Virus record (IMG/VR): IMGVR_UViG_3300027419_000052
Span: 1 to 44,387 of that record
DNA: 44,387 bases
Reading direction: 5' to 3' (one strand)
Origin: a virus
Lineage: Duplodnaviria; Caudoviricetes
Positions 1,235 through 44,283 of this stretch are shown in pieces. A program made the position numbers and the translations under genes. The number at the start of each line of letters is the position of its first letter. Positions within the stretch are counted from its first letter, which is position 1. Below the pieces are notes generated by a model. It searched no databases, was not told where the DNA came from, and saw only the letters and a program-made list of their open reading frames with translations.

Positions 1235-1348
1235 GCCCCGGCTCGCCAAAGGTCGTGCCAGTAAGACACCGAGGGCAAACTGGCCAATAAGTTAAGGATC
1301 GAAAGATCCGGTCTTATCTCGGGGAGGAGGGCAAACGCACTCCTCCTC
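1235..1348 (+). ncRNA. Candidate small structured RNA or cis-element
   Basis: GC-rich intergenic tract with stems CCCCG/CGGGG, TAAGAC/GTCTTA, GGATC-GAAA-GATCC and GGAGGAG/CTCCTCC; GAGGGCAAAC occurs twice. Confidence 0.5.
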
Positions 1349-1367
1349 ATCAAAGGGAAGTGATCCT

Positions 1368-1520
1368 ATGGATCCGGATCTCTTGATCAGACTGATCAGC
1401 AAGTATGCTGAAGAGTCTCAGGAACAGAAAAAATACATGCATTTGATAGAGATCTCCATTCCAGGTCCGGGCATTACCGGAAAAGATGCTGATCTCAATG
1501 TTCGATTTTCTTTTAACTAG
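1368..1520 (+). CDS. Small hypothetical protein (50 aa, MDPDLLIRLISKY...)
   Basis: Translated by hand; purine-rich SD-like GGGAAG upstream; its stop overlaps the SD of the next gene. Confidence 0.55.
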   Translation: MDPDLLIRLISKYAEESQEQKKYMHLIEISIPGPGITGKDADLNVRFSFN

Positions 1521-2125: not shown

Positions 2126-3711
2126 GCATTTATCTTGAGACCTGCTTTGAGGACAGATTCAGAAAGTTCAAGCTGGATCTTGGAAAGCTCAAGGCTGGCG
2201 GTGTAAAAGAAGATGTCCTATATGAGTTCATGTATAAGGCATTCGAGGATGATGTTGAGCTTTTCTGCCAGGTTGTTCTGGCGCATTGGTTCACATCGCG
2301 GTTCGGGAAACCGCATCATGAACTGTTCGACATGTATGCGGACAATCTTATCAAGTACGGAGTCATAGCCTTTCCGAGAAAGCACGGAAAAACGACATGC
2401 ATGAAGGGCTTTGTTCTATGGTGCGCGGTATATCATAAGCACGACTATATGCTTCTGGTAGGTGACACTGAAGATAAGGCGTCATTGCATTTGCAGTCGA
2501 TCAGACTTGAACTTGAAAACAATGAACTTCTGCGAGCGATATATGGATCGCTGCGAAGTGGCGCTCCAAAATGGAATGACAAAGAGATCAGGTTGAAGAA
2601 TAAGTTTCATATAAGGGTCATGTCGAAGGGTCAGTCAGCTCGCGGTTTGTTGGACGATGTTCCACCGGACTATTGCTTGATCGACGACTTTGACGATGAT
2701 GAGACTATAGAGAATATTGACATAAGAAATAAGTACGATGACTGGATGTTCACGAGCTTATTGCAGGCATTGAATCCTCAGATCGGGAAATGCCGCATGA
2801 CAGGAACTTGTATCCATGATGACGGACAATTAATGCGCGTCATCAAGAACAAGACCTGGGTTCACAAGCTCTATTCATGCATTGACGAAGACGGCAATCC
2901 ACTCTGGCCGGAATACTATACCAGAGACATGCTTCTTACGATGAAGAAGAATCTTTTTCAGGCCGATCCTCCAAAGATCCAGACCTGGTGGAAAGAATGG
3001 ATGAATAAGCCATTGAACCAGGATAATCAAACCTGGGATGCGGCTCATCTTCAGCACTGGCAGGGTCGGTATAAAGATGGAGCAATATATTTTACCGCTG
3101 ACGATGGTGAGGTATTAAGAAAAGTGCGGGTTGCATGTTTCACCGCAATCGATATTGCATCTGCAGAAGGAACATCAAAAAAGAAAGACTCGGTTGTCGT
3201 AACAACTGGAGCTCTTGATCAAAATGGAAATGTCTATTTGTTGAAGGTATGGAGAAAAAGAAATTTCAAACCTTCAGAAGTTGTCTATCAGATTTTTGCA
3301 CAGCATGAAACGTTCAATACTCGGATGGCTATAATAGAACTTATTTCGTGTCAAGATCTGATAATGGAAACATATGATACTATTGCGAGAGGAAAACGAA
3401 GTAGACCAGTTTTAAAGAAGCTCAGGAAGAGGACTGGAAGTAAACAAGACAAGATAAAGGGAAATTTGTCTGACAGACTCAGGCTTAAGCAGATCTTTAT
3501 CAAGAGAAATATGACCGAAGTTCATGATGAATTTGCAGGATTTCCGGATGGACACGATGATATATTGGATACAATTTCGGATATAGTCGAGCACGGGTTC
3601 AAGCCTGCAAAAGAGGCGATAAAAAGGATTTCGCAGCTCCCGATAGAGCTGCAGTCGGATAAAACAAAAGGGGACAGTCGCTCTTTTGTTCAAAGAGTTG
3701 TAGGATTCTAA
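2122..3711 (+). CDS. terL: Terminase large subunit
   Basis: Walker A FPRKHGKT, Walker B LIDD, coupling motif MTGT, RNase H-like nuclease motifs AIDIAS and HDDILD. Confidence 0.93.
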   Translation: MSIYLETCFEDRFRKFKLDLGKLKAGGVKEDVLYEFMYKAFEDDVELFCQVVLAHWFTSRFGKPHHELFDMYADNLIKYGVIAFPRKHGKTTCMKGFVLWCAVYHKHDYMLLVGDTEDKASLHLQSIRLELENNELLRAIYGSLRSGAPKWNDKEIRLKNKFHIRVMSKGQSARGLLDDVPPDYCLIDDFDDDETIENIDIRNKYDDWMFTSLLQALNPQIGKCRMTGTCIHDDGQLMRVIKNKTWVHKLYSCIDEDGNPLWPEYYTRDMLLTMKKNLFQADPPKIQTWWKEWMNKPLNQDNQTWDAAHLQHWQGRYKDGAIYFTADDGEVLRKVRVACFTAIDIASAEGTSKKKDSVVVTTGALDQNGNVYLLKVWRKRNFKPSEVVYQIFAQHETFNTRMAIIELISCQDLIMETYDTIARGKRSRPVLKKLRKRTGSKQDKIKGNLSDRLRLKQIFIKRNMTEVHDEFAGFPDGHDDILDTISDIVEHGFKPAKEAIKRISQLPIELQSDKTKGDSRSFVQRVVGF

Positions 3712-9013: not shown

Positions 9014-9056
9014 AGAGATAAGGATATATATACGTAGTATATATATCCTTATCTCT
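9014..9056. repeat. Perfect inverted repeat, 20-bp arms with GTA loop
   Basis: AGAGATAAGGATATATATAC-GTA-GTATATATATCCTTATCTCT. Confidence 0.95.
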
Positions 9057-33299: not shown

Positions 33300-33986
33300 T
33301 TATTTCCTCCGTATCTTTGATCCTAGCGGCATCGGCTCCCAAAATGGAATCCCGTTAATCACTACTCCTACTCCTATGGTGGGTTTATTTTTCATATAGT
33401 GTCCGTAGCGCATCGAATAAGCGCTACGATCTATTCCGCATCCGACATTCATCCCCCATACTAGAATATTTTCGTTTGCTACATACCCTACTCCTGCGAA
33501 GCTATGAAGATGTCCTATAACGCAGTTCATCATCTCCGTAATAGCTTTCGCTCTATGTCCGCTTGCTCCTGAATATCCTTCTCCGTGATCGAATAGGGTA
33601 TTGTCTATTATAAAATTTTCGCCTATTTCCCACCCAGACGGAATGTGTAGTAAATCCCTAAATGGAACTAGCATTCTCGACGTCAATTTTACTTTTGCAG
33701 CCGCTTTCAAAATTCTTGTATCGTGATTTCCCAGGCACAGTTTTCCTTTTGGAAAATACTTAAATAGAACTGCTAGCTTTTCGAGAGCTTCGTCGAGCTC
33801 CGTATTCGCATCTTTTGCATCAGGTTCCGGCTCGTGATGTGAATCTACTGCGTGAAAGTCAACTATATCCCCGCAGTGTATAACAGTGTCACACTTATAT
33901 TTCTTATAAATAGAGAAGGCGAATTCTTCGTATCCTTTTATAGAAAAGGGATAATGCGTATCTGACATAACTAGGATCCTCGACAT
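33300..33986 (-). CDS. Calcineurin-like metallophosphoesterase
   Basis: SDTH, GDIVD, GNHD, HG and GHLH motifs; GAGGAG SD. Confidence 0.92.
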   Translation of the reverse strand: MSRILVMSDTHYPFSIKGYEEFAFSIYKKYKCDTVIHCGDIVDFHAVDSHHEPEPDAKDANTELDEALEKLAVLFKYFPKGKLCLGNHDTRILKAAAKVKLTSRMLVPFRDLLHIPSGWEIGENFIIDNTLFDHGEGYSGASGHRAKAITEMMNCVIGHLHSFAGVGYVANENILVWGMNVGCGIDRSAYSMRYGHYMKNKPTIGVGVVINGIPFWEPMPLGSKIRRK

Positions 33987-33994
33987 TTACTTCT

Positions 33995-34514
33995 CCTCTC
34001 TATTTTGTGGGGACGGACATGATTTCCCTTGATATTGGTTAATTATCTCAGGTTGTCTATTCGGTAGTGGGCAACCACCCTCTTCAACACCTAGTCCGGC
34101 TTTATTATTGCAAGGAGAAGGAGATGTTACACGCCAGAGCGATACCTTCATCATTTTCTTGCAATAATTTTTCAATGTTCTTTTGAGCGAGCAGGGATAT
34201 CGACTTATGGAGGCCATCCCATAAGGTACCCTTTTCGATTCCATGGCGCGACCACAGTTGTCTAGCCCGCTGCTGGTCTATGGTTACCGAACCACAATTC
34301 CTTGATTATTCAGGGGAATAACTCCTGCGGCTTTTGTTAGACCAGACTCTTTTTTAAAACCACTAATACCTGCGGGGTTAAGTTAGTGGCTTTTATTCTC
34401 GTTCACCTTAAATATGCTCGTACTTCTTAGCTGTTTCACGATCATGTTCAACTATCCCATCGTCTGGCACTACGACTTTAGCAGTATTGCGTAGGGTTCA
34501 GGCATGTTCATTGG
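33995..34514 (-). ncRNA. Candidate large structured ncRNA (~500 nt), family unassigned
   Basis: Largest gap inside the - arm without a credible gene; at least eight stems, including perfect 11-, 8- and 7-bp helices; mismatches read as G-U on the - strand. Confidence 0.65.
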
Positions 34515-34712
34515 CTATGTCCTCTCAATAAAGTGTATTACCTGCTCAAGCATGTCTTTCTGGCCTTGTAAGAATAAAGCGCTTTCGTTCATCGAGTGCG
34601 TACTGAAGTTTTTCAGATACTCGTTAAGATACTCAAGCATATCCTTTTTGAAAGCGGATACATCACTATCGCTAAACAACGTAACAACCTTATCAAGTGG
34701 TATACTTTTCAC
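34515..34712 (-). CDS. Hypothetical protein
   Basis: 65-aa ORF with GTG start, packed against the upstream gene. Confidence 0.55.
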   Translation of the reverse strand: MKSIPLDKVVTLFSDSDVSAFKKDMLEYLNEYLKNFSTHSMNESALFLQGQKDMLEQVIHFIERT

Positions 34713-37330: not shown

Positions 37331-37534
37331 TTAGTTGTGCGTCGTAAGCGGCCCTATTTCCGGAGGATCCCTTACGAGCGACGTCAAAGCAAATTCAAAT
37401 TCCCGTATACTCTGTTCCCTATTGTGAATACTAGAAACTATTGCAGACACATGCTCTGTATACTCACACTTCCTATCCGGTATTGTGAGATCCTTAATAT
37501 CCTGATATGTTATTTCTTCAAGTTCAAGTAGCAT
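37331..37534 (-). CDS. Hypothetical protein
   Basis: TAATG coupling with the M23 gene. Confidence 0.6.
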   Translation of the reverse strand: MLLELEEITYQDIKDLTIPDRKCEYTEHVSAIVSSIHNREQSIREFEFALTSLVRDPPEIGPLTTHN

Positions 37535-38064
37535 TATATGCTCCAGCTTCCACCTAATAGAGTTCTTGGATTGACAAGCCTTCCCCGATTATCAATGATC
37601 TGCCAGTGAATATGTCCTCCAGATGAATGTCCTCTTGCCTTATCTGCTCCTCCGCTATAGCCTATAAGATCACCAGTCTTAACTTTTTGGCCCGGAAGAA
37701 CGACAAGCCAATTTCTAGCCCTGAAATGTCCGAGTCTGTGTTCTCTTCCTTCTTTATCTACTATGTAAATATGATTTCCGATATCCGGAAGCCATCCTAC
37801 ACATACTACATCTCCGTCGCAAGGTGCTTTAACTTCAGTTCCGGAAGGACACGGCATATCCCAGTGTCCCCTAGCTTTTTCTCCTTGAGAAAAAGTCGTT
37901 GACAGGTATCTATATTGGTCAGGCAGAGGAGAAGCATAGTGGGGGTTATGCTCCTCCGCCGTTTGGGCGAATGCCCGATCAAAGGACTGAACTACTGCCA
38001 AGGAGATCAATACTCCTATTAAGCAGATCAGTAATACCTGTATGATGATTCTTACAAAATTCAT
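37534..38064 (-). CDS. M23-family peptidase with signal peptide
   Basis: GTEVKAPCDG, GNHI, GQKVKTGDLIGYSG, HIH and VNP motifs; hydrophobic N-terminus then AFA. Confidence 0.88.
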   Translation of the reverse strand: MNFVRIIIQVLLICLIGVLISLAVVQSFDRAFAQTAEEHNPHYASPLPDQYRYLSTTFSQGEKARGHWDMPCPSGTEVKAPCDGDVVCVGWLPDIGNHIYIVDKEGREHRLGHFRARNWLVVLPGQKVKTGDLIGYSGGADKARGHSSGGHIHWQIIDNRGRLVNPRTLLGGSWSI

Positions 38065-38985: not shown

Positions 38986-39483
38986 CTAGTATATGAAAAC
39001 TTCAGATCCTACTTCAAGAATTCTGTATACTTTCTTTAAGTCCTCTTTTCTCATCCGGATGCAGCCATGCGTTACTGCTTTGCCGATCGTACTCTCGTCC
39101 ATAGTTCCGTGTATCATTATTTCATTCGGCATGTACAGTGCATAATCTCCTAGTATCCCTTCCTGCGGTTTGCGTTCCTCTAAAGGAACGACCGGCAAGT
39201 TCATTTCCTCATAATACCAATCGGGCGGAGTCCATAACGGGTGTTCAGTTTTGCGATATATCCTAAAATATCCCTTAGGAGTCTCGAACTTGTATTCTTT
39301 CCCATTGAGGATCTTTTTTTCTTTACTTCCTGTAGCACAATCGTATGTGGCCACACATAAAAACCCTTTATATACCGATATTTTATTTTCATTTAAGTCT
39401 ACCTCCGCCCTTGCTTTGATCGATGCTAGTCCGGTATGACATATAAGACATAATATTATTGCACAGCATAATATATATCTCAT
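38986..39483 (-). CDS. L,D-transpeptidase (YkuD domain) with signal peptide
   Basis: TPKGYFRI, PLWTPP and catalytic IHGT...AVTHGCIRM motifs. Confidence 0.92.
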   Translation of the reverse strand: MRYILCCAIILCLICHTGLASIKARAEVDLNENKISVYKGFLCVATYDCATGSKEKKILNGKEYKFETPKGYFRIYRKTEHPLWTPPDWYYEEMNLPVVPLEERKPQEGILGDYALYMPNEIMIHGTMDESTIGKAVTHGCIRMRKEDLKKVYRILEVGSEVFIY

Positions 39484-44234: not shown

Positions 44235-44283
44235 GGATGGATAGAGAATATATATACGTAGTATATATATTCTCTATCCATCC
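44235..44283. repeat. Perfect inverted repeat, 23-bp arms with GTA loop, in the divergent control region
   Basis: GGATGGATAGAGAATATATATAC-GTA-GTATATATATTCTCTATCCATCC; the right arm is also positions 1-23. Confidence 0.95.

What the first reader, a model, noticed from the sequence alone, without database searches (positions are those of the whole stretch)
33995..34514. Candidate new large (~500 nt) ornate phage ncRNA embedded in the nucleotide-metabolism operon
Seen: the other gaps I translated in the - arm are filled by small ORFs, mostly with SD sequences, but this ~520-nt stretch has no credible gene. It is tiled by complementary segments (+ coordinates): 34470-74/34490-94; 34414-21/34438-45; 34356-66/34383-93 (11 bp); 34273-80/34338-45 (perfect 8 bp, closing a multibranch domain with inner hairpins TTATTC/GAATAA and TGGTT/AACCA); 34204-10/34219-25 (perfect 7 bp); 34104-14/34158-68 (perfect 11 bp with inner GAAGG/CCTTC); and 34014-18/34094-98 enclosing 34050-57/34086-92 and 34063-68/34074-79. 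Several imperfect pairs are A-C on + but G-U on -, which points to selection on a - strand RNA, co-oriented with the flanking genes. CCGCAGG occurs twice on the - strand, with potential pseudoknot partners GCGGG and CTGTGG. A possible long-range pair is 34017-23/34441-47. Known: phages carry large structured RNAs of unknown function such as GOLLD and ROOL. I see no tmRNA, RNase P or clear group I/II intron hallmarks. Inference: this is a large RNA of a diverged or undescribed class.
Basis: partly seen in the sequence, partly recalled or inferred. Interest (0 to 1): 0.85.

Follow-up and report, generated by a model that had tools for sequence, protein, structure and literature searches.

The report
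tmRNA-like relic in phage gap
A gene-free 528-base gap in this uncultured groundwater phage holds real but only moderately strong hairpins and, in the right order and spacing, worn copies of several marks of tmRNA (the bacterial ribosome-rescue RNA), so it is likely a remodelled tRNA-tmRNA leftover that would no longer tag proteins; no relative or transcript was found to prove it.

Summary
The gap (33987-34514) and the listed stems are in the sequence. Four helices are well supported; several others are improbable in the folding ensemble. Folding is moderate: z -0.4 for the whole minus strand, about -2 for the 393-nt core, rank 5-6 of 112 genome windows. The claimed G·U strand bias is not significant. 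No Rfam family matched and no homolog was found, so covariation is untested; no RNA run was listed. New lead: the minus strand carries, at tmRNA-like spacing, an acceptor-like 5' strand, a GGAAUCGA D-loop motif, a tag-like frame (QENDEGIALA...) ending in two stops and an acceptor-like 3' end, 15 nt behind a weak tRNA-like cloverleaf. A motif model trained on 24 real tmRNAs scored it 32 bits (real 67-111; 0 of 5000 shuffles). The only higher of 4748 background windows was phage Bxz1's real tmRNA. But it lacks the T-arm and G3·U70, and its resume site is locked in an 11-bp helix, so it is not a working tmRNA. The model was designed after I saw the motif, and the tag half also resembles an ankyrin repeat. 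Best reading: remodelled tmRNA relic (0.4); rivals: unrelated structured RNA, decayed gene.

The parts
33987..34514 (-). Gene-free gap between a 65-aa ORF and the metallophosphoesterase, co-oriented with the minus arm
   Evidence: sequence confirmed by a second assembly
34470..34511 (-). 13-codon mini-ORF behind a GAGG Shine-Dalgarno; same frame as the stop at 33987
   Evidence: translation untested
34356..34393 (-). Hairpin with an 11-bp stem (one G·U), upstream of the tRNA-like part
   Evidence: pair probability 0.94
34271..34346 (-). Weak 76-nt tRNA-like cloverleaf: 6 of 7 acceptor pairs, T-like stem with an 8-nt loop, no D-stem; ends 15 nt before the tmRNA-like part
   Evidence: ARAGORN calls it tRNA-Gln(ctg) only at 70% threshold, 1 of 3 weak calls in 700 nt; none at default; acceptor pairing; closing stem p 0.19
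34249..34255 (-). Acceptor-5'-like strand GUGGUCG, 13 nt before the D-loop motif (10-12 in 24 real tmRNAs)
34235..34242 (-). D-loop-like motif GGAAUCGA (same eight letters as in real tmRNA L444); paired in the predicted fold
   Evidence: pairing 0.78 over positions 8-21
34204..34225 (-). 7-8 bp hairpin where tmRNA has pseudoknot 1; no canonical PK1 seen
   Evidence: p 0.94; PK1 judged by eye
34102..34161 (-). Tag-like frame QENDEGIALACNISFSLQ plus two TAA stops; UA at -5/-4; 81 nt from the D-loop motif (71-84 in real tmRNAs); an out-of-frame TAA at 34129 lies two bases after the ALA codons
34104..34168 (-). Long hairpin whose perfect 11-bp base pairs the resume context with the tandem stop
   Evidence: p 0.98; resume-region pairing 0.98 vs 0.18-0.65 in 14 real tmRNAs
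34050..34092 (-). Hairpin with a purine-rich internal loop, in place of pseudoknots 2-4
   Evidence: p 0.75-0.91
34005..34015 (-). Acceptor-3'-like end CGUCCCC-A-CAA; 5 of 7 pairs with the 5' strand; no U70; no T-arm in front of it
   Evidence: 8.3 bits for the end, -18.2 bits for the T-arm position
33987..34244 (-). 85-aa ORF without Shine-Dalgarno; not credible as a gene, though its stop abuts the next start
   Evidence: coding score -0.12 per codon, against -0.03 to +0.16 for 15 small ORFs elsewhere in the arm; no homolog
33300..33986 (-). Downstream flank: metallophosphoesterase, first identified gene of the run leading to RuvC, primase-helicase, exonuclease and DNA polymerase
   Evidence: phrog_221 E 5e-39 and neighbours
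34515..34712 (-). Upstream flank: 65-aa ORF of unknown function

Best explanation
The gap is non-coding, has several real hairpins, and is likely the remodelled remnant of a tRNA-plus-tmRNA cassette that would be copied as an untranslated stretch of the minus-arm message and is predicted not to tag proteins. Shown in the sequence: a weak cloverleaf (34346-34271), then 15 nt, then an acceptor-like 5' strand, a D-loop motif, a tag-like frame with two stops and an acceptor-like 3' end, in tmRNA order and, for the 5' half, at tmRNA spacing. Inferred: the ancestor was a standard one-piece tmRNA. It lost the T-arm, about 100 nt of the pseudoknot ring and G3·U70, so alanyl-tRNA synthetase and EF-Tu should not accept it. 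An 11-bp helix now locks the resume site to the stop codons, so a ribosome should not read the tag. The most likely present role is passive or cis: a folded spacer or leader in front of the DNA-metabolism genes. A decoy for SmpB or for stalled ribosomes is the less likely role.
For: (a) A spaced-motif model built from 24 real tmRNAs scores the gap 32.2 bits. 1 of 4748 background windows scored higher, and that window holds the real tmRNA of phage Bxz1 (12060-12494), which I had not marked. 0 of 5000 shuffles reach 32.2; the 5'-half-only variant gives 0 of 5000 and 0 of 4796. (b) A simpler rule (D-loop motif, WA at -5/-4, acidic start, ALA-like triplet) is met by 14 of 26 real tmRNAs and by the gap. 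It is met by 0 of 5000 shuffles, nowhere else in the genome and nowhere in 2.76 Mb of other loci. (c) D-loop-to-resume distance is 81 or 84 nt against 71-84. (d) In Bxz1 the tmRNA starts 13 nt behind a tRNA; here the tmRNA-like part starts 15 nt behind the cloverleaf. (e) Phages do carry tmRNA, including cut-down forms (PMC4131195, passages; PMC9004378, passages: 402 of 18,146 phage genomes). (f) Core folding z is no weaker than that of E. coli tmRNA.
Against: Both scores were designed after I had seen the motifs. They leave the ALA position free and ignore a bad T-arm. Harsher variants weaken the result: 23 of 5000 shuffles and 10 of 4796 windows (core only, penalty 10); 16 of 4796 windows with the T-arm charged. 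Background loci overlap, so they are not independent. The score is half of the lowest real one (67.2). Half of it (16.3 bits) comes from the tag peptide, and that peptide also aligns with ankyrin-like repeats of P0084. No tmRNA model finds the gap: RF00023, which picks up even ordinary tRNAs elsewhere; RF04321; cmscan to E 10; ARAGORN. An HMM of the tmRNA 5' part has no hit there, and pairwise alignment to 28 tmRNAs gives a mean z of 0.2. The resume context and a G-starting first codon cannot both be met: the model picked 34158 with -3.4 bits. None of the searched relatives that share the capsid protein carries a tmRNA; 2 of 45 records do, both large phages found through the phosphoesterase. 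No homolog of the gap exists in hand to show intermediate forms.
Confidence: 0.4

Rival explanations
1. A structured RNA of about 390 nt unrelated to tmRNA: either a stand-alone ornate RNA like ROOL or GOLLD, or a cis leader that controls read-through or processing of the DNA-metabolism message. The tmRNA-like marks would be chance.
For: Real gap. Four helices at p 0.75-0.98, two of 11 bp. Core rank 5-6 of 112 windows. The 11-bp helix has no counterpart in tmRNA. No Rfam match.
Against: No homolog or covariation in any search. Whole-gap minus z is -0.38. No strand bias. No sigma-70 promoter and no minus-strand terminator by consensus scan. The genome has no tRNA island, whereas ROOL and GOLLD often sit near one (10.1101/2024.12.08.627333, passages). 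It leaves the tmRNA-like score unexplained.
Confidence: 0.27
2. A decayed protein gene (or two): it starts at the SD-led ATG 34511, ends at the stop 33987 that abuts the next start, and is broken by about six frameshifts. Stems and tmRNA-like marks would be by-products, and the tag-like peptide the end of an ankyrin-like repeat.
For: Start and stop are in one frame. One frame at a time looks least non-coding. The best frameshift path beats all but 7-31 of 300 shuffles. The 66-codon frame 34305-34108 hits one 1870-aa repeat protein at E 1e-5, with 14 of 33 identities in the best repeat (the ankyrin label is my reading of the repeat, not a tool result). Four of 7 short genome hits fall in the same frame inside real ORFs.
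Against: That hit is 1 protein in 1.84 billion, and its score is summed over six repeats. Pfam and PHROGs give 0 families for all three read-through frames. tblastn and word searches find nothing significant. The Atlas gives only hits under 0.9 or none. Six indels with intact neighbours are unusual. It does not explain two 11-bp helices (4 of 400 shuffles).
Confidence: 0.2
3. A DNA-level element (origin or cruciform cluster ahead of the replication genes), or a plain spacer whose stems are chance.
For: With DNA energy parameters both strands fold better than all shuffles (z -3.2 and -3.8, 0 of 100 each). The signal is strand-symmetric. 10 of 169 genome windows have as good a helix score.
Against: A real RNA (sunY) also scores -4.6/-5.0 with DNA parameters, so the test does not separate DNA from RNA. 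The gap is not AT-rich and is in none of the 20 largest direct-repeat families listed. Better palindrome candidates lie at 9021-9049 and 44235-44283.
Confidence: 0.13

Closest known systems
Standard one-piece tmRNA (Rfam RF00023), including phage forms such as mycobacteriophage Bxz1
   Same: Order and 5'-half spacing of acceptor-like strand, D-loop motif, UA before an acidic tag with ALA, tandem stop and acceptor-like 3' end; sits just behind a tRNA-like element, as in Bxz1.
   Different: 251 nt against 339-435; no T-arm, no G3·U70, 5 of 7 acceptor pairs, no pseudoknot 1, resume site paired, tag runs on for 8 residues after ALA; not detected by RF00023 or ARAGORN.
Cut-down phage tmRNA of mycobacteriophage DS6A (tRNA-like domain only; PMC4131195, passages)
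   Same: A phage RNA keeping only part of tmRNA; the paper notes that a similar molecule inhibits tmRNA, perhaps by titrating SmpB.
   Different: DS6A keeps the tRNA-like domain and drops the message; this element keeps message-like marks and has lost most of the tRNA-like domain.
Permuted two-piece tmRNA (RF04321, RF01849-51)
   Same: A T-like stem and an acceptor-like strand lie 13-15 nt upstream of the 5' strand and can pair with it (5 contiguous pairs).
   Different: 8-nt loop without A58, positions 1-2 unpaired, no G3·U70; RF04321 finds nothing while ringing over cut-off in 1 control genome.
ROOL (RF03087) and GOLLD (RF02032)
   Same: Several-hundred-nt gene-free phage region with many helices.
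   Different: No model match (the ROOL control rang nowhere, so that negative is soft); no tRNA island; no covariation shown.

Membership tests
tmRNA (standard) | 7-bp acceptor stem with G1-C72, G3·U70 and discriminator A | tested here: not met
   5 of 7 pairs, G1-C72 and A present, position 70 is C; descriptor finds E. coli ssrA but not the gap
tmRNA (standard) | T-arm directly before the acceptor 3' strand | tested here: not met
   -18.2 bits against the profile of 24 tmRNAs
tmRNA (standard) | Stemless D-loop motif GGNNUCGA 10-12 nt from the 5' end | tested here: inconclusive
   Motif present at offset 13 (6.3 bits) but predicted paired (0.78 vs 0.39-0.47 in three real ones)
tmRNA (standard) | Tag frame 71-84 nt after the D-loop motif with WA at -5/-4 and an acidic start | tested here: met
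   81 nt, UA, QENDEG; first codon is CAA, whereas all 26 called tags start with a G codon
tmRNA (standard) | Hydrophobic ALAA-type C-terminus at the stop | tested here: not met
   ALA is followed by CNISFSLQ before the stops; divergent phage tags exist (Bxz1)
tmRNA (standard) | Accessible resume site and pseudoknot 1 just upstream | tested here: not met
   Pairing 0.98 vs 0.18-0.65; opening it costs about 11 kcal/mol; PK1 not seen by eye
tmRNA (standard) | Covariance-model or ARAGORN match | tested here: not met
tmRNA (standard) | SmpB binding, alanylation, tagging | not testable with these tools
   needs bench work
tmRNA (permuted) | tRNA-like domain closed by an intervening loop | tested here: not met
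   RF04321 no match; 5 of 7 pairs, 8-nt T-like loop
tmRNA (intron form) | Group I intron in the T-loop | tested here: inconclusive
   The dedicated model is not in Rfam (PMC11915505, passages) and was not run; no group I core found
Group I intron | P7 with bulged G-binding site and J8/7 consensus | tested here: not met
   Descriptor scores 6 of 6 on T4 td, nrdB and sunY, at most 4 in the gap; pairwise likeness at chance; RF00028 negative is soft because it missed td and nrdB
Group II intron | Domain V hairpin with catalytic triad | tested here: not met
   One descriptor hit is the 34393 hairpin, without the D5 bulge or a following D6 (no positive control run); Rfam negative
RNase P RNA | Conserved regions I and V | tested here: not met
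   Found in E. coli rnpB, absent on both strands of the gap
ROOL / GOLLD / OLE / raiA / HEARO | Match to the family model | tested here: not met
   cmscan 0 at gathering, only chance hits to E 10
ROOL / GOLLD-like ornate RNA | Covariation-supported fold; abundant transcript | not testable with these tools
   No homolog found; no RNA holder listed

The most novel reading that the evidence does not exclude
A phage RNA built from tmRNA parts that works as a switchable or locked tmRNA mimic: it keeps the message half and D-loop motif, can borrow a T-like arm and acceptor strand from the cloverleaf upstream, and hides its tag in an 11-bp helix, so that it soaks up SmpB or stalled ribosomes and blunts host trans-translation without tagging phage proteins. 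This would be a form of tmRNA outside the three catalogued gene forms and invisible to every tmRNA finder.
Probability: 0.12. Interest if true: 0.8.

Novelty: new variant of a known kind. Interest (0 to 1): 0.45.

Why it matters
If the tmRNA ancestry holds, this is a case of a large phage RNA arising from a housekeeping RNA while losing every mark that search tools use. That would suggest an origin for some orphan ornate phage RNAs and a way to look for more: search for the message half rather than the tRNA-like half. If it is an active decoy, it would make the open question of why phages carry tmRNA testable. If it is a relic or a decayed gene, it is of little interest. With one genome and no transcript, these cannot yet be told apart.

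Tried and rejected
Homolog searches, all without a true hit. blastn of 50,697 phage records and 72,556 plasmids. Whole-record DNA search of 25 and 48 viral records found through the phosphoesterase or capsid protein (50 of 61 intended handles were sent, 2 were not held). Single-sequence covariance models R1 and R2 on 46 records, on 31 sources (68, 69) and on pattern loci (107: 90 loci, including 80 of the 119; 108: 11 loci). Three exact patterns in IMG/VR (the last scan stopped after 34 of 64 parts); their hits were chance, and the 11 were read in translation, one shown inside a long ORF. 401 whole genomes around one Lachnospiraceae MAG: 7 short hits in coding DNA. The two closest phosphoesterase relatives with DNA (L045 66%, L046 64%) have ordinary ORFs upstream. 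Closer relatives (up to 77%) exist as proteins only, and their DNA could not be fetched. The DNA polymerase found no relative in IMG/VR. GTDB scan: 1 weak hit. Expression: no RNA holder listed, which is no evidence either way. Families considered and dropped: group IA2 intron (blocks that looked like T4 td by eye were at chance), group II, RNase P, permuted tmRNA, ROOL, GOLLD. A T-box or riboswitch has no Rfam match. An assembly error was rejected. The 85-aa ORF as a gene was rejected; one search covered only proteins of 46-149 aa. Earlier scan notes had no look-alike by sequence or place.

Full report
Setting. The window is a 44,387-base virus record with direct terminal repeats, held by one groundwater run that may be its source. 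It has terminase, portal and capsid genes on the plus arm. On the minus arm lie small unknown ORFs followed by a metallophosphoesterase, RuvC, primase-helicase, exonuclease and DNA polymerase. The gap 33987-34514 lies at the border between these two groups. A second assembly gives the same letters. It is a real gap: no SD-led ORF of 35 aa or more and the weakest coding signal of 12 minus-arm stretches. The 85-aa ORF has no SD, a negative coding score and no homolog among proteins of 46-149 aa.

Observation. All ten listed pairings exist. In the minus-strand ensemble four are solid (34393/34356, 34225/34204, 34168/34104, and the 34092-34050 arm; p 0.75-0.98). The 8-bp multibranch closure (0.19), its TTATTC hairpin (0.08), the 34098/34014 stem (0.13) and the long-range pair (0.10) lose to alternatives such as 34348/34093 (0.70) and 34331/34251 (0.55). 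Perfect helices exceed shuffles (4 of 400) but are matched by 10 of 169 genome windows. Whole-gap z is -0.38 on minus and -2.04 on plus. The 393-nt core, chosen afterwards, gives -1.8 to -2.4 on minus and ranks 5th-6th of 112 windows. E. coli tmRNA scores -1.3, RNase P -2.5 and sunY -3.1, so these values neither prove nor exclude an RNA. The G·U strand argument is not significant (15 of 200), and the repeated 7-mer is expected.

Known families and relatives. Rfam gives nothing at gathering score and only chance hits to E 10. Family-wise searches for tmRNA, permuted tmRNA, group I, ROOL and GOLLD are empty (ROOL control silent). Because RF00028 missed T4 td and nrdB, I tested group I directly. 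A P7/J8-7 descriptor scores 6 on three T4 introns and at most 4 here, and blocks that looked like td by eye align at chance. RNase P and domain V tests are negative. No homolog was found by blastn, whole-record search, single-sequence covariance models or exact patterns. The two nearest phosphoesterase relatives with DNA have ordinary genes upstream. Covariation, the decisive test, could not be done, and no RNA holder was listed.

The tmRNA lead. On the minus strand I noticed GGAAUCGA (34242) followed 81 nt later by a frame reading QENDEGIALACNISFSLQ and two stops, with UA at -5/-4 as in E. coli ssrA. A rule written from these marks is met by 14 of 26 real tmRNAs, by 0 of 5000 shuffles and nowhere in 2.76 Mb of other loci. 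I then trained position matrices on 24 real tmRNAs (26 of 29 loci were called; 2 mis-called ones were dropped; 23 come from one phylum sample, plus E. coli). Real ones score 67-111 when left out; the gap scores 32.2, with an acceptor-like 5' strand at 34255 and an acceptor-like 3' end at 34015-34005. One of 4748 background windows scored higher, and ARAGORN shows it to be the tmRNA of phage Bxz1. In the rerun 0 of 5000 shuffles and 2 of 4796 windows reach 32.2. Loci holding a real phage tmRNA had been added in between; I infer, but did not check, that they are those two. A weak 76-nt cloverleaf ends 15 nt upstream (only at 70% threshold, 1 of 3 weak calls), much as a tRNA ends 13 nt before the Bxz1 tmRNA.

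Against it. The scores were shaped after seeing the motifs, and I had tried about eight families. With harsher settings 23 of 5000 shuffles or 10-16 of 4796 windows reach the gap. Background loci overlap. An HMM of the tmRNA 5' part and pairwise alignments show nothing. Half of the score is the tag peptide. The 66-codon frame that contains it has one hit among 1.84 billion proteins, a 1870-aa repeat protein at E 1e-5 summed over six repeats. Its alignment covers the tag-like residues and looks like an ankyrin repeat (label from my recall). Pfam and PHROGs see no family in any frame, so I rate this as weak, but it shows that the peptide has a second possible source. Among 45 related records only two large phages carry a tmRNA.

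Membership and mechanism. It fails as a tmRNA: no T-arm (-18 bits), C instead of U at position 70, 5 of 7 acceptor pairs, about 100 nt missing between tag and 3' end, a tag that runs past ALA, and a resume site paired at 0.98 against 0.18-0.65. Opening that site costs about 11 kcal/mol. From established tmRNA biology it should not be alanylated or read. I commit to a remodelled tRNA-tmRNA remnant (0.4), likely transcribed with the minus-arm message. No sigma-70 promoter or minus-strand terminator was found, so a separate transcript is not indicated. Its most likely role is a folded spacer or leader. A decoy role has a precedent in a tRNA-domain-only molecule said to inhibit tmRNA (PMC4131195), but that form keeps the part lost here. 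Rivals: an unrelated structured RNA (0.27), a decayed gene (0.2), a DNA element or chance (0.13).

Literature. Five searches listed no paper on a phage RNA with tmRNA message marks and no tRNA-like domain; the library lacks most subscription journals. Seen: 10.1101/2024.12.08.627333 (passages and part 1 of section 22), PMC11915505, PMC4131195 and PMC9004378 (passages), PMC10690425 (abstract and outline). Supplements of PMC11915505 and PMC10690425 were not read and hold models that could match. Earlier scan notes list many ornate phage RNAs and one degenerate tmRNA copy, none alike in sequence; they are leads, not support.

Verdict. A real gap with real but moderate structure; not a member of any tested family; likely derived from tmRNA; unproven without a homolog or transcript. 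Interest 0.45.

Noticed in passing
window 9021-9049 and 44235-44283: Two related long A/T-rich palindromes with the same TATAC-GTA-GTATA centre (23-bp perfect arms and a 3-nt loop at the genome end), both upstream of plus-strand genes; possible late promoter, origin or packaging signal.
   Followed up: partly
window 1235-1370 (+): Intergenic stretch ahead of the terminase region that folds well (z -2.5, 5 of 200 shuffles), with GAGGGCAAAC twice and a GAAA-tetraloop hairpin; no Rfam match.
   Followed up: partly
L463:1501-1866 (G001, G002): Real tmRNA (111 bits) in two large phages found through the phosphoesterase; ARAGORN's tag call looks wrong, and a frame ending in ALAAA lies at the usual place.
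   Followed up: no
L046 about 3365-3440: A short tRNA-like stretch between the DNA polymerase and the next ORF, not called by ARAGORN at default.
   Followed up: no
L043 and L044: The metagenome contig (88,574 bases) holds this genome twice head to tail; the gap is identical in both copies.
   Followed up: yes
window 37534-38064 and 38986-39483: A metallo-endopeptidase-like gene and a gene that looks like an L,D-transpeptidase (my reading; PHROGs gives only an unknown family) among the small minus-arm genes.
   Followed up: no
L290 (T4 td, nrdB): Rfam RF00028 missed both ORF-bearing introns even at E 1, so an Rfam blank for group I is soft.
   Followed up: yes
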